Source: Candidatus Saccharimonadota bacterium (GTDB taxonomy: Bacteria; Bacillota_I; Bacilli_A; Mycoplasmatales; Hepatoplasmataceae). From it: 32,000 bases of DNA. Positions 7,316 to 23,314 of this stretch are shown in pieces. The position numbers were made by a program, and so were the translations under genes. Under the pieces are notes generated by a model. It did no database searches and was not told the DNA's origin. It worked only from the letters and a program-made list of their open reading frames with translations. Positions within the stretch are counted from its first letter, which is position 1. Every line of letters starts with the position of its first letter. The DNA lies in the NCBI RefSeq assembly GCF_000582535.1, contig NZ_CP006932.1, positions 510,001 through 542,000 of the forward strand. Direction: 5' to 3'.

Positions 7316-8596
7316 ATGATAAAACTTAATCTCAAAAATTCAAAAATTGAAAAAAAAATATATAGTTATCAATCTAAAGTAAATACTATTCACCAAATGA
7401 TTATTAATAGAACAGGTCAAGGTAATGAAATGCTTGATTGATATAATTGAGCTAAAACAATTACAAATACTGAAATAAATGCAATTAATTTTAAAATTAA
7501 AAACTTAAAAACAATTAATAAAGTTGATACACTTTTAGTGCTAGGAATTGGTGGTTCTTATTTAGGAGCAAAAACAGGGATTGATTTTATAAATGGATCT
7601 TTAAGAGCAAATAATAAAGTTATTTTTGCAGGAATAAATCTTTCTAGTAATTACTATAAACAAATTGAAGAAAAATTAAAAAATAAAAATTGAGCAATTT
7701 GTGTTATTTCAAAATCAGGAAAAACAATTGAACCAGCAATTGCTTTTAGATATTTTCGAAATTTACTAGAGAAAAAAATTGGAAAAGCAAAAATGAAAGA
7801 TTTCATTGTTGTAATTACCGATCGTAAAAAAGGCTTATTAAATAATTTTGTTGAAAAATATAATTATCAAAAATTTATCATTCCAGATGGAATTGGTGGT
7901 CGTTTTTCAGGAATAACTTCTGTAGGTTTATTTCCAATGGCTTTTGCTGGAATTAATATTAAAGAATTATTAGAAGGTATAAAATTAGCAATGGATGATT
8001 TTAAGAATTCTAATTTAAAAGAAAATATTGCTTATCAATATGCTGTAGCAAGAAATATTCTTTATAAAAAGAGATTGACATCAGAAATATTTGTAACTTA
8101 TAATGAAGACTTTATAATGCTGGGAGAATGACTTAAACAATTATTTGGAGAATCTGAAGGAAAAGAAGGAAAAGGTTTGTTTCCAAATTCTGTAAATTAT
8201 ACAAGAGATCTTCATTCTCTTGGGCAATTTATTCAAGAAGGAAAAAGAACTTTTTTTGAAACAACAATTTGACAAGAATATGAAGATCAAGATGTTAAAA
8301 TCACAAAAGAAGATTTAGATTTAGATCAATTAAATTATCTTGAAGGAAAAACAATCGATTATATTAACAAACAAGTATTAAAAGGAGTTTTAAAAGCACA
8401 TACAAGAGATGGAAATATTGCAAATATTATAATTAGTTTTAATAAAAATGATGAAAAAACATTAGGTTATTTATGATATTTTTTCTTTATTGCGGTTACT
8501 TGTTCAGGATACTTATTAAAAATAAATCCTTTTAATCAACCAGGAGTGGAAATATATAAAAAGCATTTACTAGAAAATTTAAAATTTAAAAAATAA
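7316..8596 (+). CDS. pgi: Glucose-6-phosphate isomerase
   Basis: The gene encodes 426 aa once TGA is read as Trp. PGI signatures are present: [28 protein letters not shown] and FGESEGK. It merges the track ORF 7793-8131 with its flanks in the same frame. Confidence 0.92.
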
Positions 8597-8624
8597 AATA
8601 AAGATTTATTTTTTAAATTTATAA

Positions 8625-8633
8625 TGCTATAAT
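8625..8633 (+). promoter_or_regulatory. Candidate extended -10 promoter element (TGcTATAAT)
   Basis: tgctataat lies 35 nt upstream of the ATG at 8668, and aaaggac sits just before the ATG as a weak SD. AT-rich DNA produces many chance TATAAT matches. Confidence 0.4.
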
Positions 8634-8667
8634 TTTAATTAATTTTTTCAAAAAATAAAGGACTAGT

Positions 8668-10038
8668 ATGGATAAAAAATTAGAAAGTTTAACAGTTGCT
8701 CAACTTAAAAAAGAAGCTGACCAAAAAAACATAAAATATAAATCTTCTATAAGTAAAAAAGAATTAATAAAATTACTTGAAGATAAAAAAAGACCAATAA
8801 AAAGTGGAAAAACTATTTTACCTAGAGATAAAGCAGTTGAATTAATACAAGAAATATTTAAAGATAATAATTTTGCTCCTCTAAGCTTACAACAAATTTT
8901 TAATAGTAAAAGATTATTAAAATATAAAAAACAATATAAAAATGAAGAATCTTATGAAAGTGCAATTAAATGAAACTTAGAAGTAAATTCAAAAGATTCT
9001 AAATTATGAGATCAAAAAAACACTATTTTTGAAAATAGAAATATTGGAGAAGGAATATGAGGATTAGTAGGAGATACAGTTCATACATATCAAGAATCTT
9101 CATCTGCTAAAAAAATAGATAATTCTTCAAAAGAACCAAAAAAAATTGAAAAAACAGAAGAATCAAAAAAAAGCAAAAAACCAAAAAGATTGATTTCTAA
9201 AATTAAAGCAAAAAATGCAGCTCATCTTGATCAAGGTGAAAAATTAATTGAAGGAAAATATCAATTGGTAATTAAAAACCTTAGAAAAAAATATGGTAAA
9301 ACTGAAGTTCTAAATGGAATAGATCTTAAAGTTATGCCAGGAGAAAAAGTTGCTGTTGTTGGTGCAAATGGTGCTGGAAAAAGTACATTATCTGAAATAA
9401 TTGCGCAAGTAAAAGAACCAACAAGCGGAGAACTTCTTTATTCATTCGGACATACAAAAGAAAAAATTTCAGCAAAAATTGGAATTCAATTCCAAGATTC
9501 TTCTTATCCTGATTTTTATAAAGTTAGTGATATTGTTAGATTTATAATTGATGCTTCAGATATTAAAATTTCAAATGAAGATTTAGATCATCTTTATGAA
9601 ACTTTTGATGTTAAATATCTTAAAAAAGATGTAGCAAAAGGATTATCAGGAGGACAACAACAACGTCTAAATATTCTTCTTGCAATTGTAAATAATCCTA
9701 AAATTTTAATTTTAGATGAAGTAGGAACAGGTCTTGATGTTGAATCTAGAACAAAAATTAAATCATATATTAAATCATATATTCATGAAAATGATGCAAC
9801 ATTATTATTAGTATCACATAACTCTGATGAAGTTATCGAACTTGTAGATAGAGTTGTTGTTATCCACAGTGGAAAAATATATGAAGATAGACCTTTAAAA
9901 TCAATTTTAAAAGAATGAAAACATTTTGATGATTATATGAATAATCTTTATTTAAATGTCTTCAAGAAAAATCTTGATTTAAGAGTAAATAAATCAGGTC
10001 GTCAAAAAAGAAAAGAAAAAGAAGGAGAAAAAAATTAA
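8668..10038 (+). CDS. ABC transporter ATP-binding protein with a roughly 175-aa N-terminal extension (HeH/Rho_N-like motif plus winged-helix-like module)
   Basis: ORFs 8668-8973 and 9190-9918 are in the same frame. All codons between them were checked, and only TGA occurs. The product is 456 aa. The ABC core has Walker A GANGAGKST, signature LSGGQQQRL and Walker B ILILDE. There is no in-frame ATG near the start of the ABC domain; the track's start at 9190 is a TTG with no SD. Confidence 0.7.
8797..9108 (+). repeat. Direct repeat copy 1 (about 310 bp), paired with 18543-18856
   Basis: A gapless 303-nt alignment joins 8806-9108 to 18554-18856, with roughly 25 mismatches (about 92% identity by eye). 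It encodes GKTILPRDKAVELIQEIFKDNNFAPLSLQQIFNSKRLL...NIGEGIWGLVGDTVHTY. Confidence 0.9.
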
Positions 10039-11782: not shown

Positions 11783-11869
11783 GGAGGGGTAGCGAAGTCT
11801 GGCTAAACGCGGGTGACTGTAGATCATTTCCCTTTGGGTTCGGGGGTTCGAATCCCTCCCCCTCCACCA
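11783..11869 (+). tRNA. tRNA-Tyr (GTA), class II with long variable arm, CCA encoded
   Basis: The acceptor is GGAGGGG/CCCTCCA. The anticodon stem-loop ggtga-ctGTAga-tcatt and the T-arm ggggg-ttcgaat-ccctc are present. Length is 87 nt. Confidence 0.9.
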
Positions 11870-11874
11870 TTAAA

Positions 11875-11949
11875 TGGTCTGTAGCCAAGCGGTAAGGCAC
11901 ATGGTTTTGGTCCATGTATGCGTAGGTTCGAATCCTGCCAGACCAGCCA
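11875..11949 (+). tRNA. tRNA-Gln (TTG), CCA encoded
   Basis: The acceptor is tggtctg/cagacca. The anticodon stem-loop is catgg-ttTTGgt-ccatg and a T-loop ttcgaat is present. Length is 75 nt. Confidence 0.9.
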
Positions 11950-11954
11950 TTTAT

Positions 11955-12030
<76 letters not shown>

Positions 12031-12031
12031 C

Positions 12032-12119
12032 GCCCAGGTGGTGGAATTTGGTAGACACGAGGGACTTAAGCTCCCTTGGTCATTAGACTGTGCGGGTTCA
12101 AGTCCCGCCCTGGGCACCA
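12032..12119 (+). tRNA. tRNA-Leu (TAA), class II, CCA encoded
   Basis: The acceptor is gcccagg/cctgggc. The anticodon stem-loop is aggga-ctTAAgc-tccct. A long variable arm and the T-arm gcggg-ttcaagt-cccgc are present. Length is 88 nt. Confidence 0.9.
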
Positions 12120-13914: not shown

Positions 13915-14619
13915 TTAAAGAATTACAACTTTATTAGCTCTATTTTCAATTTTTATCTTTAAGTTAAATTTCTTAATAAGTCTATCTAATGTAAGGAAAA
14001 GAATAAAATTATCTTTGTATCTAAAGCAAATATCTCTTTCTCCTCGTAAAAGAATCACAAATCCATAATCATATAAAATTGCTTTTTTAATTTCATAAAA
14101 TTTTATTACTTCAATTATCTTATCTTTTTTTTGATCATAAAATACAATTTCAGAATTAGAAAAAATAAGTTCCCCTTTATTTTCTGATTGATAAATCTCA
14201 TTTTGATCTAACAAATATTTATTTACATTTTTATATAAAAAATAAGCAATTTTACTCAAGCTAATTCCTTGATAAGAAGAAGGATAAGGTGCTTCAATTG
14301 TTTTAAAAAATCTTCGATTTGTAAAATCTCTTGCAAGCATATATTGTAAATTTAAATCTTCGTAATTATAAAGTTTAAGATCTAATTTTATAATTATATG
14401 TTTCATCTTACTAAAAAAAACTTGATTATTATGATAATTTTTTTCTTTCCACTTACGAAAAAGAATTTTTTTATAACTCTCGAACAAATCATAATCAAAC
14501 TTAGATTGTATTTCTTTTATTTGCAATTTAGATAATTTATCTAAATTATCAAGATTCAATTTTTGATTAATTTTATAAAATTGATACTGAGTATTTACTT
14601 TTCCCTTAATTGTAGTCAT
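13915..14619 (-). CDS. Hypothetical protein (234 aa), last gene of the R-M operon
   Basis: This is an intact track ORF with no TGA codon. Its ATG is 13 nt downstream of the nuclease stop. I recognised no family. It contains IVFYD-x13-EIK, which resembles the nuclease's LLLYD-x9-EIK. Confidence 0.6.
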   Translation of the reverse strand: MTTIKGKVNTQYQFYKINQKLNLDNLDKLSKLQIKEIQSKFDYDLFESYKKILFRKWKEKNYHNNQVFFSKMKHIIIKLDLKLYNYEDLNLQYMLARDFTNRRFFKTIEAPYPSSYQGISLSKIAYFLYKNVNKYLLDQNEIYQSENKGELIFSNSEIVFYDQKKDKIIEVIKFYEIKKAILYDYGFVILLRGERDICFRYKDNFILFLTLDRLIKKFNLKIKIENRANKVVIL

Positions 14620-14632
14620 GTTTTTATTATAT

Positions 14633-15424
14633 TTAATTGAAGAAATTAGTTAATATATTTTCTATTTCATTTTTTAAATTATTTTTAATAATTTCATTAT
14701 TTGAAACCTTATTAAAAACTTCTTTTATATCACTAAATAAAATATTATTAGTAAATTTTATTCAAAATTCTTCTCCTCTAAGTAAATTTTTATTTTCTTC
14801 TAAATAATCATCTTTTCATCTTTTTTTATCATTAAAAAAATATAAAATTGGTTGAATTTTTTTATAATTTATTTTATTTTCTTCAAAATATCTTCTTAAA
14901 GCAAAAGTAGTTTCAAATAATTTTTTATAAATATTTTCATGCTTTCCAGTATCGTGATTATCTAAAAGTTTTATTTCAAATAAGTAATAATTGCTATTAT
15001 TATCGTACAATAGAAGATCAATATCTTTTTGTTTAATTTTTTTTGCTATATCTAATTTTTCATATTTAATATCATCTAAAAAACTTAAATTAAGATCTCT
15101 CTTATTTTTCATATAATCTTCAATCGAATCATTTTCTGCTTTTGAAATAATTCCATTTATTTTTTTACCTGATAATTTAGATAAATTATATTTTTTATCT
15201 TCTTTTACAATATCTCGTATTAATTTTTCAATAAAATTCCCAAAAGTAATACTTAAAGATTGTAAATAACTTATTAAATTTCTGTATTCAATTGGTAAAA
15301 AATGAACTTTTTCTTTATTATTTTTTATTTTTTTATTAAAATCTTTAGGATCTTTTTTTGATTTTATGATTTTATTTATATCACTTAAAATTATTTCTTC
15401 TAATTTTTCTTGATTTAAATTCAT
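14633..15424 (-). CDS. Type II restriction endonuclease candidate, PD-(D/E)xK type (263 aa), possibly R.HinfI-like
   Basis: The track ORF 14816-15424 extends through two TGA codons to TAA at 14633-14635; the frame was checked. The start lies 3 nt after the methyltransferase stop. The putative catalytic motif is DIDLLLYD...YYLFEIKLL. The 263-aa size is close to the 262 aa I recall for R.HinfI. Confidence 0.6.
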
Positions 15425-15427
15425 ATT

Positions 15428-16513
15428 TTATTTAACATCCTTTCTTATATCATCAATTGAAATATAATTATTCCCTTCCTTAATATATCAATATTTTCAA
15501 CCATTTAAATATCTACCATTTTCAAATATTTCAGTAGCTTTATGAATTGAATATTTAACATTATTTATTTTAATTTTTCCTTCTGAATTTAAATAAACTT
15601 TATCTTCTTTTAAATTGTATAAATATTTTGATTTAATTTTATTTTCTCTTATTAAATCTAAAATTTTGGGATATTTTATCTTTTCATCAAACTTCGCTTT
15701 AATATAATCAAAAAATGGGTCATTTTTTGAAATTTTATCAACATTTTTAATTCTATCATTAGCATAATTTATATATTTTTCATTATTTTCTATTCCTATA
15801 AAATTACGATGTAATTTTTTAGCAACAGCTCCTGTTGTTCCTGTTCCAAAAAAAGGATCTAAAATAACATCATTTATTTTTGTTGATGCTAAAATAATTC
15901 TTCTTAATAAATCTTCTGGTTTTTGTGTATTATGTAATTTATTACCATTATTATCTTTTAATCTTTCTTTTCCTGAACATATAGAAAATTTTCATACACT
16001 TCCCATTTGTTTTTTTTTATTTTCATTTTTCATTGTTTTATAATTAAAAGTAAATTTAGAATTTTGAGATTTTGTAAACCATATTAAATTTTCATTTGAA
16101 TTTACAAACTTTGTACCTCTAAAATTAGGAGTAGGATTCGTCTTTTCTCAAGTTATATCATTAATTATTCAAAAATTTAAATCTTGAATAATATAACCTA
16201 ATCTATAAATATTATGGAAAGTTCCCATTACTCATATTGAACCCTTATCTTTTAATATTCTTCTACATTGTGTTAATCATTTTCTAGTAAATTTATCATA
16301 TTCTTTATATGAATCAAATTTGTCCCATTCATCATCTACGCCATTATATTTATTACCATTAATTCTATAAAGAGTACCTGTTCCTGTTTGCATAAAATAA
16401 GGAGGATCAGCAAAAATTAAATCAATAGATTTAGAAGGTATTTTTTTTAATTCTTCTAAACAATTTCCTAATTTAATTTTATTTATAAATTTATCTAAAT
16501 TATCATTTTTCAT
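15428..16513 (-). CDS. Beta-class N6-adenine DNA methyltransferase of the CcrM / M.HinfI family (361 aa)
   Basis: I checked the frame from 15431 to 16276; only TGA occurs. Motif IV is IFADPPY near the N-terminus and motif I is [15 protein letters not shown] near the C-terminus, which is the beta order. Long stretches match my memory of Caulobacter CcrM: [40 protein letters not shown] and the C-terminal NGWKYWY. Confidence 0.85.
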
Positions 16514-16560
16514 CTTTTTAATTATAAAAAATAATTACTTTAAATAATTGTTTTTATATT

Positions 16561-17655
16561 TTAAATTAAATCCTTCAAATAATTATCTATTTCTATTATT
16601 TTATATGGTAACTGTTTTATTAATCCTTCTCTAAAATCTTCAATTATTTGACTTAATGAAGATTTTAAGTTATTAATTTGAAGTTCTCCGTTGGAGTAAA
16701 ATAATTTATATAAAGATTCTATTGATTCTCTTAATGAAGCATATTTTTGATTTAATCAATTTTTAAAAATAATTGTTTTATTATGATATATTCGATTTCT
16801 TAAAAATTTAATTTTTTCTAATTCATTTATAAATTCTTTTTTAATATTTACTAAATTTTTTGGATCTAATTCTTCAAAATTTAAAATTTTATTATTTACA
16901 ATTTCAAATTCTCAATGAATAATATTTTTAGTATTATTAAAAAATAGTCTCAATAAATTTGAAAAAGAAGTATCATCTAATTTTTCAATTAAATTAATAT
17001 AATCTTGAAAATTCATTTCTTCAAAAGTAATTTCTAAAAATTCATTAGATTCTTTCAAATCCTTTATAGTTGTTGGTATCATTTTTATTGATTCATGGAA
17101 AAGTGATTTTTCTTTATTCTTTTTTTCTTGCAAAATTCCAGGAAAAAAGAAAATTTTTTGGAAAGTTAAATTATTTTTTCTCATAATAGACATTAGCATA
17201 ACTCTTAAAAAATATTCAAAATTATAAATAACATCTCCTATTAATTTTCTAAAAATATCTTGCAATCTATAAAATGAATCAAAAATTTGAAAAGTTATAA
17301 TTTCTTTTTCTTCATAATTTATTTTTAAAATGTTTTCATAAATGTATTCAATAAATTTGAAACTATAAGTATTAGAAATTGCAAAAAATTGTTCTAAATA
17401 TCTATTTGTTGTGAAAGGGATATTATTTTTTAAGCAATTCAATATTTTATCTGAATTAATTTTTCTATTTTTATTAAAAAAATTTCAAATTTTTTTATAA
17501 TAAATGTTATTTTCTATATATTGAACATTTTTATTAATGTTTTTTATATTTTCTTCGTCAGCTTTTTTAAAATTATCAAAAAAAATTATTAATTCATCAA
17601 TTTTTTTTCTTTTTTTATTTGATCTAATTTCTCTATCATATCCGTTATTTTTCAT
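16561..17655 (-). CDS. Abi_2 (AbiD/AbiF-like) HEPN-type abortive-infection protein candidate (364 aa)
   Basis: ATG is at 17653-17655 and the frame was checked down to TAA at 16561-16563 (three TGA codons). The sequence KFLRNRIYHNKTI supplies an R-x4-H HEPN motif (codons 16783-16800) in the context typical of the Abi_2 family. Confidence 0.6.
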
Positions 17656-17703
17656 AAATTCATCTTTTTTTATTTATTTACAAATATTATAAATAAATAT
17701 TTA

Positions 17704-18354
17704 TTAATTATTATCTTTATATCTCCCTACCAAATAATCTATAAGTAAAATAATTATTAATAAAAATAAAAACAATCCTTCTGATCCAATTATTATATTT
17801 CGATACTGATAAAAAGTTGGATAAATTCCTGATCCTGAAATAAATATTAAAAGTAAAATAAAATAAATCGGAAATAAAAAAGCTGAATAAATTATTTTAA
17901 ATTTAAAACTAATAAGAATCGAAATAAAATATAAAAATGTGCAATTAATCATAAAATAATAAAATCATCTTTTTGTATAAGAAGTATTAAAATTAGATAA
18001 AACAAAATAAGCAACAAGATAATAAAAAATAATACTAATTAAAAGAATTACTAAACAAGAAATAATAATTGAATAATAATAACTATTTCTAAGTTTAAAA
18101 TTATTTAACTGAAACTTAAGTTTTTTTCATCTATCAATTAAAACAACTACAAAACTTATTGAAATTAAATTAATAAGCGAAAAATACATAATAATTCTTG
18201 GCGGATCTAATTTTCATGTTTCTAGATGATCTTTTACTACTTGAAAAACTGAATTTAATTCAATAAAAAAAGTAGATCATATTAAAAAAAATAAAATTAA
18301 AATTACTAGTGATTTTAAATTTCAAATTTTTCTAAGATAAAATAATAATTCCAT
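17704..18354 (-). CDS. Hypothetical multi-pass membrane protein (216 aa), first gene of the minus-strand island cluster
   Basis: ATG is at 18352-18354 and the frame was checked (TGA only). There are about six hydrophobic helices, for example LVILILFFLIWSTFFI, YFSLINLISISFVVVLI, IIISCLVILLISIIFYYLVAYFVL and FLFPIYFILLLIFISGSGI. It ends 48 nt upstream of the Abi-like gene. Confidence 0.6.
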
Positions 18355-18542
18355 AATTTATATTTTCATTTATAGTTTTATTATATTAATTACTAAAAAT
18401 ATAAATATTATTAACTATATTAGAATTATATATAATTAATTTTTTTCTTTCATTCTCAATATTTCTTATTTCCTAAAATTTGTAATATAATTAAATACAG
18501 ATAATTAAAGAGAGTAAACATAGGATTAATAAAAGGAAATTT

Positions 18543-18856
18543 AATAAAAAATGGGAAAAACTATCTTACCTAGGGATAAAGCGGTTGAATTAATACAAGA
18601 AACATTTAAGGATAACAATTTTGCTTCTCTAAGCTTACAACAAATTTTTAATAGTAAAAGATTATTACAATATAAAAGTCAATATAAAAATGAAGAATCT
18701 TACCAAAGTGCAATCAAATGAAATTTAGAAGTAAATTCAAAAGATTCTAAATTATGAGATAAAAAAAATAATATCTTTGAAAATAGAAATATTGGAGAAG
18801 GAATATGAGGAGTAGTAGGAGATACAGTTCATACATATAAGGAACCTTCATCTACT
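18543..18856 (+). repeat. Direct repeat copy 2, paired with 8797-9108
   Basis: See copy 1. Homology crosses the ATG of the HNH gene (aataaaaaATGGGaaaaact versus aataaaaAGTGGaaaaact) with a 1-nt indel just upstream. Confidence 0.9.
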
Positions 18857-19285
18857 TCTAAAACAATAACTTCTTTTAAAACAAAAAAAGCAAAAGTAAC
18901 AAAAGCAATAAAAGCAACAACAAAAATTAAAAAAGCAAAAAGCGGAAACAAAGAAACAGATCTATTAGATCTATTAAATAGTGAATTAGATGATGATTTA
19001 AAATTAATCATTACAAAAAAAATTAAATTAAATAAAGAATTAGCTTCTGAAATTAGAGCAAGAGCAAATCATAGATGTGAATATTGTGGACAAGAAACTT
19101 TTAAAAATGATCAAGATGAAGGATATCTTGAAGTTCATCATATTGATTTTCTATGTGAAGGTGGAAAAGATCAAAAAGATAATTTAATTGCTCTTTGTCC
19201 AACTTGTCACCGTAGAGCACACTCTTCTAAAGAAAGAGAAGAATTTAAAGAAGAATTAAAAAATATTGTAAATGATAAAAATTAA
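18551..19285 (+). CDS. HNH endonuclease with an N-terminal winged-helix-like (Mrr_N / HARE-HTH-like) module (244 aa)
   Basis: The full frame was checked. The C-terminus is HRCEYCGQETF...LEVHHIDFLCEGGKDQKDNLIALCPTCHRRAH, an HNH/CCHH motif. The first 101 aa are about 89% identical to residues 47-147 of the ABC ATPase. Confidence 0.8.
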
Positions 19286-19305
19286 ATTTTATTAATTAAC
19301 AAAAT

Positions 19306-19334
19306 AAAAAGCAACCCTTAAGGTTGCTTTTTTC
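19306..19334. terminator. Bidirectional rho-independent terminator between the HNH gene and rpoC
   Basis: aaaaa-gcaacc-cttaa-ggttgc-ttttttc has a G+C-containing stem flanked by A and T runs, between two convergent stops. Confidence 0.8.
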
Positions 19335-19342
19335 TTTTATTA

Positions 19343-23314
<3,972 letters not shown>

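What the first reader, a model, noticed from the sequence alone, without database searches (positions are those of the whole stretch)
16561..18354. Two-gene module: multi-pass membrane protein followed by an Abi_2/HEPN protein
The 216-aa protein (about six TM helices, no recognisable catalytic motif) is followed after 48 nt by a 364-aa protein. Its C-terminal part carries KFLRNRIYH, the R-x4-H motif of HEPN RNases in the context typical of AbiD/AbiF (Abi_2). Abi_2 proteins are usually described as single-gene systems. A dedicated membrane partner encoded directly upstream would be a distinct architecture, with a membrane sensor or effector paired with a HEPN RNase. I do not recognise this arrangement as a named system.
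Basis: partly seen in the sequence, partly recalled or inferred. Interest (0 to 1): 0.62.

Follow-up and report, generated by a model that had tools for sequence, protein, structure and literature searches.

The report
Orphan membrane gene beside Abi-like gene
The two genes are real and adjacent, but they are not a conserved pair: the membrane gene is a strain-lineage orphan in the fixed flank, while the 364-aa gene is probably a very diverged AbiF-like HEPN toxin that is swapped in and out together with restriction systems.

Summary
The window is Ca. Hepatoplasma crinochetorum Av. A 216-aa protein with about six TM helices (17704-18354, minus strand) is followed after 48 nt by a 364-aa protein (16561-17655, minus strand) that carries an invariant R-N-x3-H motif.

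The proposed two-gene module is not supported.
- Four other Hepatoplasma lineages have the 364-aa homologue without the membrane gene.
- Two near-identical (99 %) sister strains keep the membrane gene, but a different restriction cassette replaces g364 plus its HinfI-like R-M system.
- g216 has no relatives outside the Av lineage. It lies in about 750 bp of unique DNA at a rearrangement junction.

The Abi_2/HEPN call is plausible but below every formal threshold.
- No member hits Pfam, PADLOC, NCBIfam or PHROGs.
- HMMER against an Abi_2 profile gives no signal, and no abiF antitoxin RNA is found.
- hhalign gives a weak local match (empirical P about 0.005) whose relaxed alignment places R-N-x3-H on AbiF's catalytic R202/H207.
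- An independent AF2 model (pLDDT 79) ranks PbAbiF, the only Abi_2 structure in the PDB, 6th of 350,542 chains.

Best reading: a stand-alone, fast-evolving AbiF-like toxin in a restriction-cassette hotspot downstream of rpoC. Interest is modest.

The parts
17704..18354 (-). g216 (X271_00498): orphan membrane protein of 216 aa with about six TM helices. It is restricted to Av-type H. crinochetorum strains.
   Evidence: Code-4 ORF. TM segments and positive-inside loop charges. No Pfam, PADLOC or NCBIfam hit. The only homologues are 98-100 % orthologues in Av-type assemblies. No trace in L001, L002, L005 or L006.
17668..18417 (.). About 750 bp of DNA with no counterpart in Ps-type or H. scabrum genomes. 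It holds g216 plus short flanks and lies at the junction between the translocated HNH block and the cassette.
   Evidence: blastn synteny map.
17656..17703 (-). 48-nt AT-rich spacer between g216 and g364. It has no terminator and no conserved RNA element.
16561..17655 (-). g364 (X271_00497): all-alpha protein, a candidate for a highly diverged AbiD/F (Abi_2)-like HEPN toxin. Its family has five members, all in Hepatoplasma.
   Evidence: Exhaustive profile search found 5 hits in 1.84e9 proteins. Family alignment A3. hhalign against Abi_2. AF2 model with pLDDT 78.7. Foldseek rank 6 is PbAbiF 8vz6_A.
16783..16800 (-). R286-N-R-I-Y-H291, the putative HEPN R-x4-H catalytic motif.
   Evidence: Invariant R, N and H in all 5 members. 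In the relaxed hhalign alignment it aligns with R202/N203/H207 of AbiF and with the RNSCCH of PbAbiF. R202 and H207 are required for AbiF toxicity (PMC12373285).
17203..17388 (-). N-terminal blocks resembling Abi_2: FFAISNTYSFKFIEYIY (17338-17388) and FYRLQDIFRKLIGDVIYNFEYFLR (17203-17274).
   Evidence: This is the only region picked up by the local hhalign Viterbi alignment (score 25.5). Coordinates verified.
14634..17644 (-). Exchangeable cassette: g364 plus the HinfI-like MTase (15428-16513) plus the HinfI-like REase (14633-15424). In strains that are 99 % identical in the flanks, other restriction cassettes replace it.
   Evidence: blastn window vs L034: 99.1 % identity down to window 17645 and 98.7 % from 14633 onward, with nothing between. 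L035 carries a GmrSD-type pair instead. MTase Pfam hit 6e-67. REase NCBIfam HinfI hit 6.7e-35, below the curated cutoff. PF09520 is precomputed on the orthologues.
18551..19285 (+). g244, an HNH nuclease resembling type IV restriction enzymes. It is divergent from g216 and is translocated relative to Ps-type genomes.
   Evidence: Pfam HNH 3.5e-12. PADLOC mREase_IV 5.8e-14. Synteny.
13915..14619 (-). g234, a conserved protein of unknown function that forms the right-hand fixed flank of the cassette slot.
   Evidence: 74-92 % identity across lineages, similar to core genes. It is present next to every cassette variant except in H. vulgare.

Best explanation
The two adjacent genes are two unrelated units, not one system.

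(1) g364 is a stand-alone, rapidly evolving all-alpha protein. It is most likely a very diverged relative of the AbiD/F (Abi_2) HEPN RNase toxins. Inferred mechanism: it dimerises to form an R-x4-H active site (R286/H291) and cleaves RNA when phage infection or loss of the linked restriction system releases it, acting as a second-line abortive or addiction function beside restriction. Unlike characterised AbiF systems, it has no detectable upstream antitoxin RNA, so how it is controlled is unknown. Candidates are low expression or the family-specific N-terminal helix of about 65 aa. It sits in a cassette hotspot downstream of rpoC in Hepatoplasma and is gained, lost or swapped together with restriction systems.

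(2) g216 is a lineage-specific orphan membrane protein with six TM helices. It belongs to the fixed left flank of that hotspot in Av-type strains. It was brought next to g364 by a rearrangement and insertion, and it persists when g364 is replaced.

Shown: the ORFs, the motif invariance, the separability of the two genes in both directions, and the cassette exchange. Inferred: HEPN homology, RNase activity and a defence role.
For: Separability:
- g364 homologues lie directly after rpoC with no membrane gene in L001 and L002.
- In H. scabrum the homologue follows the R-M pair, and in H. vulgare it stands alone at another locus.
- g216 orthologues (98 %) are followed by an HNH_2 nuclease plus a double MTase in HCTKY, and by a GmrSD_N plus HNH pair in ERZ27262795, with no g364.
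- The flanks are 99 % identical and the left junction lies 11 nt inside g364.
- g216 lies in about 750 bp of unique DNA at a rearrangement junction.

Fast evolution typical of defence genes: L001 and L002 share 99 % RpoC identity but only 45 % identity between their g364 homologues.

HEPN/Abi_2 likeness:
- R-N-x3-H is invariant.
- hhalign local score 25.5, P 0.015; 1/200 column shuffles and 0/200 block shuffles reach it.
- The relaxed alignment is co-linear over 251 columns. It puts LRNKIYH on the catalytic LRNxCAH of AbiF, E149/R153 on E87/R91, and FSELLKLLFSNL on FGxLSKLYSNL.
- An AF2 model built only from the Hepatoplasma family (pLDDT 78.7) ranks 8vz6_A PbAbiF 6th of 350,542 chains, with the highest probability and TM-score on the list. 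PbAbiF is the only Abi_2 entry in the PDB.

Known pattern: Abi2/AbiD/AbiF HEPN genes are embedded in R-M operons (PMC3710099).
Against: - No Abi_2 or HEPN hit reaches significance for any of the five members in Pfam, PADLOC, NCBIfam or PHROGs.
- The exhaustive HMMER profile search found no Abi_2 protein.
- HMMER scoring of the members against an Abi_2 profile is no better than scoring of shuffles.
- The hhalign global score is not above the null, and the reversed profile scores 23.1 against 25.5.
- hhalign probability is only 3 %.
- The Foldseek match has E = 2.9 and TM 0.30/0.36, and there are no Abi_2 hits in BFVD.
- No abiF RNA is found and the upstream regions are not conserved.
- Nothing here tests RNase activity, toxicity or defence.
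Confidence: 0.62

Rival explanations
1. One reading: g216 and g364 form a dedicated two-gene defence module, with a membrane sensor or effector paired with a HEPN RNase. This would be analogous to Cas13b-Csx28 or to membrane-tethered Abi2/Swt1 HEPN proteins.
For: The genes are on the same strand with a 48-nt gap and no terminator between them. Both have about 16-17 % GC and lie in a defence islet. Membrane-associated HEPN systems do exist (PMC3710099 section 15; bioRxiv 10.1101/2021.11.02.466367).
Against: None of four other lineages with a g364 homologue has g216. Two of the Av-type strains with g216 lack g364, and the cassette junction falls between the two genes. g216 has no homologues elsewhere, so there is no co-occurrence signal.
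Confidence: 0.06
2. g364 is not a HEPN/Abi_2 protein. It is an unrelated Hepatoplasma-specific alpha-helical protein, for example an accessory or regulatory factor of the restriction cassettes, and its R-N-x3-H motif is a coincidental conserved patch.
For: All curated profile libraries are negative. HMMER against an Abi_2 profile shows no signal. hhalign probability is 3 %, the global score is at null level and the reversed control is close. Foldseek TM is below 0.4. No abiF RNA is found.
Against: The single Abi_2 structure in the PDB ranks 6th of 350,542 chains with the best TM-score on the list, and it was a target named in advance. Several blocks align co-linearly, including the experimentally validated catalytic R and H. 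The gene is hypervariable and mobile like a defence gene.
Confidence: 0.22
3. g216 is not a functional gene. It would be a recently created or decaying ORF in T-rich junction DNA that merely looks like a membrane protein because T at the second codon position encodes hydrophobic residues.
For: It has no homologues outside one lineage. It lies in unique junction DNA. T is 51 % at the second codon position. The C-terminus varies among the four orthologues, and a neighbouring gene overlaps it in L035.
Against: A 216-codon stop-free frame in DNA of 17 % GC is far beyond chance (maximum 127 in 500 shuffles). It is intact in four assemblies. It has six regularly spaced TM segments that obey the positive-inside rule. 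Base composition differs by codon position.
Confidence: 0.1

Closest known systems
AbiD/F group (Pfam Abi_2, PF07751): type III toxin-antitoxin HEPN RNases, e.g. PbAbiF (PDB 8vz6) and C. difficile AbiF with its RNA RCd22
   Same: An all-alpha protein of similar core size. The R-N-x3-H motif aligns with catalytic R202/H207. There are co-linear N-terminal (SNxxYYRFxxY / FDxxLRx10ExxxR) and central (FGxLSKLYSN) blocks. PbAbiF is the best structural match in the PDB. The gene is located beside restriction systems.
   Different: It falls below every curated threshold, with no Pfam hit at E <= 10. It has an extra N-terminal helix of about 65 aa. No abiF RNA (RF03085) is detected, and no upstream region is conserved: the intergenic gap is only 43-48 nt in two loci. 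The family is confined to five Hepatoplasma lineages.
HEPN genes embedded in R-M operons (Anantharaman et al. 2013, PMC3710099)
   Same: g364 homologues sit next to a HinfI-like type II R-M system in three lineages and next to a GmrSD-type enzyme in one. In the Av versus HCTKY comparison, g364 is exchanged together with the R-M genes.
   Different: The gene order varies (before or after the R-M genes) and one homologue stands alone, so the linkage is by neighbourhood or hotspot rather than a fixed operon.
Cas13b-Csx28 and membrane-tethered Abi2/Swt1 HEPN proteins (a HEPN RNase with a membrane component)
   Same: In the Av strain a multi-pass membrane protein is encoded immediately upstream of a putative HEPN protein, on the same strand.
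   Different: The two genes do not co-occur in any other genome, and each occurs without the other. g216 has no detectable similarity to any family.
HinfI restriction-modification system (GANTC)
   Same: The downstream 361-aa N6_N4 MTase and 263-aa REase match the HinfI family.
   Different: The REase score (120.7 bits) is below the NCBIfam equivalog cutoff (175 bits). GANTC is not depleted in the window (85 observed vs 93.6 +/- 10 expected). Specificity was not determined.

Membership tests
AbiD/F (Abi_2, PF07751) | Significant match to the Pfam Abi_2 profile (gathering score 25.6 bits) | tested here: not met
   No Abi_2 hit for g364 at E <= 1 or for any of the five family members at E <= 10. 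The positive control, phiC2 AbiF, scores 166 bits. A local HMMER Abi_2 profile with filters off scores the members no better than shuffles.
AbiD/F (Abi_2, PF07751) | HEPN R-x4-6-H catalytic motif, with R-N-x3-H in Abi_2 | tested here: met
   R286-N-R-I-Y-H291 is present, and R, N and H are invariant in 5/5 members. In the relaxed hhalign alignment the motif aligns with AbiF R202/N203/H207.
AbiD/F (Abi_2, PF07751) | Remote homology by profile-profile comparison or fold similarity to a solved AbiF | tested here: inconclusive
AbiD/F (Abi_2, PF07751) | Upstream antitoxin ncRNA (abiF motif, RF03085), or an upstream region more conserved than the gene | tested here: not met
   No RF03085 hit in window 16400-19400 at E <= 10, nor in L001, L002, L005 or L006 at E <= 5. 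The control in phiC2 is found at 37.6 bits. The upstream 175 nt of the five genes are not alignable beyond AT-richness. Homology between the window and L001 starts only 12 nt upstream of the start codon.
AbiD/F (Abi_2, PF07751) | Toxicity and RNase activity that depend on the R and H residues; phage defence | not testable with these tools
   This needs an experiment.
Proposed two-gene TM + HEPN module | Conserved co-occurrence of the two genes across genomes | tested here: not met
   g364 homologues occur without g216 in L001, L002, L005 and L006. g216 orthologues occur without g364 in L034 and L035.
Proposed two-gene TM + HEPN module | Physical or functional interaction between the two proteins | not testable with these tools
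   No multimer prediction tool was available.
HinfI-family type II R-M (neighbouring genes) | N6/N4 DNA MTase plus HinfI-family endonuclease as adjacent genes | tested here: met
   Pfam N6_N4_Mtase 6.1e-67. NCBIfam restrict_HinfI 6.7e-35, below the equivalog cutoff. PF09520 HinfI is precomputed on the orthologues.
CPBP/'Abi' intramembrane protease (PF02517), considered for g216 | Pfam match and conserved EExxxR / FxxxH / HxxxN motifs | tested here: not met
   No Pfam hit at E <= 1 apart from a spurious DUF3976 match. The sequence contains a single His (H43) and no EExxxR.

The most novel reading that the evidence does not exclude
In the Av lineage, the newly juxtaposed g216 has been co-opted as a membrane partner (effector, sensor or restraint) of an AbiF-like HEPN toxin that lacks the usual RNA antitoxin. 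This would be a young, lineage-specific analogue of Cas13b-Csx28. A milder version is that the g364 family is a new branch of AbiD/F toxins without an RNA antitoxin, which travels with restriction cassettes.
Probability: 0.05. Interest if true: 0.6.

Novelty: new variant of a known kind. Interest (0 to 1): 0.27.

Why it matters
As proposed, a new architecture of membrane partner plus HEPN protein, the finding does not hold, so it should not be carried forward as a candidate new defence system. Three things remain.

- **A diverged toxin family.** A tiny Hepatoplasma-restricted family is probably an extremely diverged AbiF-like HEPN toxin without the hallmark antitoxin RNA. If confirmed, it would extend the AbiD/F group into minimal-genome Mollicutes and raise the question of how such a toxin is restrained without its RNA.
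- **A cassette hotspot.** There is a clear, previously unlisted restriction-cassette hotspot downstream of rpoC in roughly 0.6-Mb symbiont genomes. Near-identical strains carry different restriction cassettes there, sometimes with this gene.
- **A caution for scanning.** Code-4 genomes need code-4 translation, and adjacency in a single genome is weak evidence for a module.

Tried and rejected
- **Curated HMM libraries.** Pfam, PADLOC, NCBIfam and PHROGs gave nothing for g364, its four relatives or g216. One HEPN_Swt1 match at E = 1 covers the motif but is noise.
- **PDB sequence search with the family profile.** Nothing relevant.
- **First AF2 model (2 sequences).** pLDDT 49, and its BFVD search was meaningless.
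- **hhalign global mode and HMMER sequence-vs-profile tests.** No signal.
- **Adding PbAbiF to the Abi_2 profile.** No gain.
- **Viral-contig scan with AbiF.** Returned only near-identical copies, useless for diversity.
- **Metagenome and viral scans for the g364 family and g216.** Nothing found.
- **Repeats around the locus.** Only AT-rich chance matches.
- **Promoter scan.** Not above shuffles.
- **g216 as a diverged paralogue of the local ABC-2 permeases, ion channel or g212.** Rejected.
- **g216 as a CPBP 'Abi' protease.** Rejected: no motifs and no hit.
- **g234 as a conserved partner of g364.** Rejected, because it evolves like a core gene, is absent near the H. vulgare homologue, and stays in place when g364 is replaced.

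Full report
**Observation**

The window has 15-30 % GC, and rpoC is split into fragments under table 11. Under table 4 (TGA=Trp) everything reads cleanly. On the minus strand:
- g216 lies at 17704-18354 (216 aa, five in-frame TGA).
- A 48-nt spacer follows.
- g364 lies at 16561-17655 (364 aa, three in-frame TGA).
- Then come a 361-aa N6/N4 DNA methyltransferase (15428-16513; Pfam 6e-67), a 263-aa HinfI-family endonuclease (14633-15424; NCBIfam 6.7e-35) and a 234-aa protein of unknown function (13915-14619).

Upstream and divergent from g216 is a 244-aa HNH nuclease resembling type IV restriction enzymes (18551-19285). A bidirectional terminator (19306-19332) and rpoC follow.

Both ORFs are far longer than chance allows (maximum 127 codons in 500 shuffles). 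g216 has six hydrophobic segments whose loop charges fit the positive-inside rule. KFLRNRIYH is at residues 283-291. Exact look-up identifies the genes as X271_00498 and X271_00497 of Ca. Hepatoplasma crinochetorum Av, both annotated as hypothetical proteins.

**Is it a two-gene module?**

No. The g364 family is tiny. An exhaustive profile search of 1.84 billion representative proteins returned five entries, all from Hepatoplasma, one of which is a table-11 fragment of g364 itself.

The contexts of the g364 homologues are:
- In H. crinochetorum Ps (L001) and in a near-identical strain from SRR32609521 (L002), the homologue directly follows rpoC. The gap is 126-175 nt and holds no membrane ORF.
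- In Ca. H. scabrum (L005) it lies after the HinfI-like R-M pair.
- In Ca. H. vulgare (L006) it stands alone at another locus, between an intact gene and decayed copies of the same gene.

Conversely, g216 has no homologue anywhere except 98-100 % orthologues in Av-type assemblies. In two of those assemblies g364 is missing:
- In MAG HCTKY (L034) the DNA is 99.1 % identical to the window from rpoC through the HNH gene and g216, down to window position 17645, which is 11 nt inside g364. An unrelated cassette then follows: an HNH_2 nuclease and a 589-aa C5+N6 double methylase. Identity resumes at 98.7 % at window 14633.
- In ERZ27262795 (L035) the g216 orthologue is followed by a GmrSD_N plus HNH pair on the other strand.

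Compared with Ps-type genomes, g216 lies in about 750 bp of unique DNA (17668-18417), exactly at the junction created by translocation of the HNH block. So g216 belongs to the fixed flank, and g364 belongs to an exchangeable cassette together with the R-M genes. Each gene occurs without the other.

**What is g364?**

The negative evidence is substantial:
- All curated libraries are negative for all five members.
- The PDB sequence search is negative.
- HMMER scoring against a purpose-built Abi_2 profile is no better than scoring of shuffles.

To test the Abi_2 idea properly, I fetched a validated AbiF from phage phiC2 (Pfam Abi_2 1e-48) and collected 40 diverse Abi_2 proteins. I then ran profile-profile comparisons. 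The local hhalign score is 25.5 (P 0.015, probability 3 %). It covers the N-terminal Abi_2 blocks, SNxxYYRFxxY and FDxxLRx10ExxxR. Only 1/200 column shuffles and 0/200 block shuffles reach that score, but the reversed profile scores 23.1, and a global alignment is not above the null.

With a relaxed threshold the alignment becomes co-linear over 251 columns. It places LRNKIYH exactly on the Abi_2 LRNxCAH, which contains R202 and H207, the residues whose mutation abolishes AbiF toxicity (PMC12373285). It also places E149/R153 on E87/R91, and FSELLKLLFSNL on FGxLSKLYSNL.

I put the probability that g364 is an AbiD/F-like HEPN protein at about 0.7. It does not qualify as a formal member.

**The RNA component**

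AbiD/F systems are now understood as type III toxin-antitoxin pairs. An upstream ncRNA carrying abiF motifs blocks the HEPN site, and the upstream region is more conserved than the gene itself (PMC12373285, PMC13064643). Rfam finds the abiF RNA upstream of phiC2 abiF. It finds none in the window at E <= 10 or in the four homologous loci at E <= 5. The upstream regions are not alignable, and in two loci the intergenic gap is only 43-48 nt. This defining feature was tested and is not met.

**Evolutionary behaviour**

L001 and L002 have 99 % identical RpoC, 98-99 % identical HNH and channel proteins, and 92 % identical g234. Their g364 homologues are only 45 % identical, and one strain carries a HinfI-like R-M system where the other has a GmrSD-type enzyme.

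The slot between rpoC (or g216) and g234 is therefore a cassette hotspot with at least six configurations across seven assemblies. Abi2/AbiD/AbiF HEPN genes embedded in R-M operons are a known pattern (PMC3710099). The published defence inventory of Hepatoplasmataceae does not list this islet (PMC10928387).

**Mechanism (inferred)**

g364 most likely acts as a stand-alone HEPN RNase toxin alongside restriction systems. How it is restrained without the RNA antitoxin is unknown. g216 is a six-TM orphan of unknown role that may be co-transcribed with g364 in the Av strain. There is no terminator between them, but nothing indicates functional coupling.

**Verdict**

The HEPN call is plausible but sub-threshold. 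The novel two-gene architecture is refuted by comparative genomics. What remains is a new, very diverged variant of a known kind of gene in a restriction-cassette hotspot, and interest is modest.

Noticed in passing
window 8796-9188 vs 18543-18942: An in-frame copy of about 400 nt (86.5 % identity) of the 5' part of the HNH nuclease gene is inserted near the start of the ABC-transporter ATPase gene (8668-10038). It adds roughly 100 aa that the ATPases of L001, L002 and L005 lack.
   Followed up: partly
window 18418-19347; L001 12242-13158; L002 11143-12029: The HNH nuclease gene block lies next to rpoC in Av-type strains but between g234 and the ion-channel gene in Ps-type strains. It is missing from this region in H. 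scabrum, so it has been translocated.
   Followed up: partly
window 14634-17644; L034 5708-8817; L035 5611-7534; L001 8001-11332; L002 8001-10297; L005 6064-9107: The slot between rpoC (or g216) and g234 is a restriction-cassette hotspot. Its contents vary: HinfI-like R-M with the g364 homologue before or after it; an HNH_2 nuclease with a C5/N6 double MTase; GmrSD_N with HNH; or a g364 homologue with GmrSD_N. The flanks stay 99 % identical between some of these strains.
   Followed up: yes
L001 8001-9098 vs L002 8001-9065: Two strains with 99 % identical RpoC carry g364-family alleles that are only 45 % identical. This points to allelic replacement or extreme diversifying selection.
   Followed up: partly
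L034 5698-5717: In HCTKY, the start of g364 (ATGAAAAATAA...) survives as a 6-codon remnant ORF (MKNNKK*) at the left cassette junction. The recombination breakpoint therefore lies inside the first codons of g364.
   Followed up: partly
L006 6406-7210 and 9167-10096: In Ca. H. vulgare the g364 homologue (7884-8936) sits between an intact 309-aa gene and two decayed fragments of a near-identical copy of that gene.
   Followed up: no
window 13915-14619: g234 is a well-conserved protein (74-92 % identity) with no family match in Pfam, PADLOC or NCBIfam. It marks the right edge of the hotspot in every lineage except H. vulgare.
   Followed up: partly
whole window: GANTC, the HinfI site, is not depleted: 85 observed vs 93.6 +/- 10 expected under a first-order Markov model. 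So there is no sign of site avoidance despite the HinfI-like R-M system.
   Followed up: partly
L001 11057-11332 (-): A 91-aa ORF with a hydrophobic N-terminus lies between the REase and g234 in the Ps strain. It is absent from the window and unrelated to g216.
   Followed up: no
window 11783-12116: A cluster of four tRNA genes lies between the ABC-2 permease genes and g212. It is conserved in the related loci.
   Followed up: no
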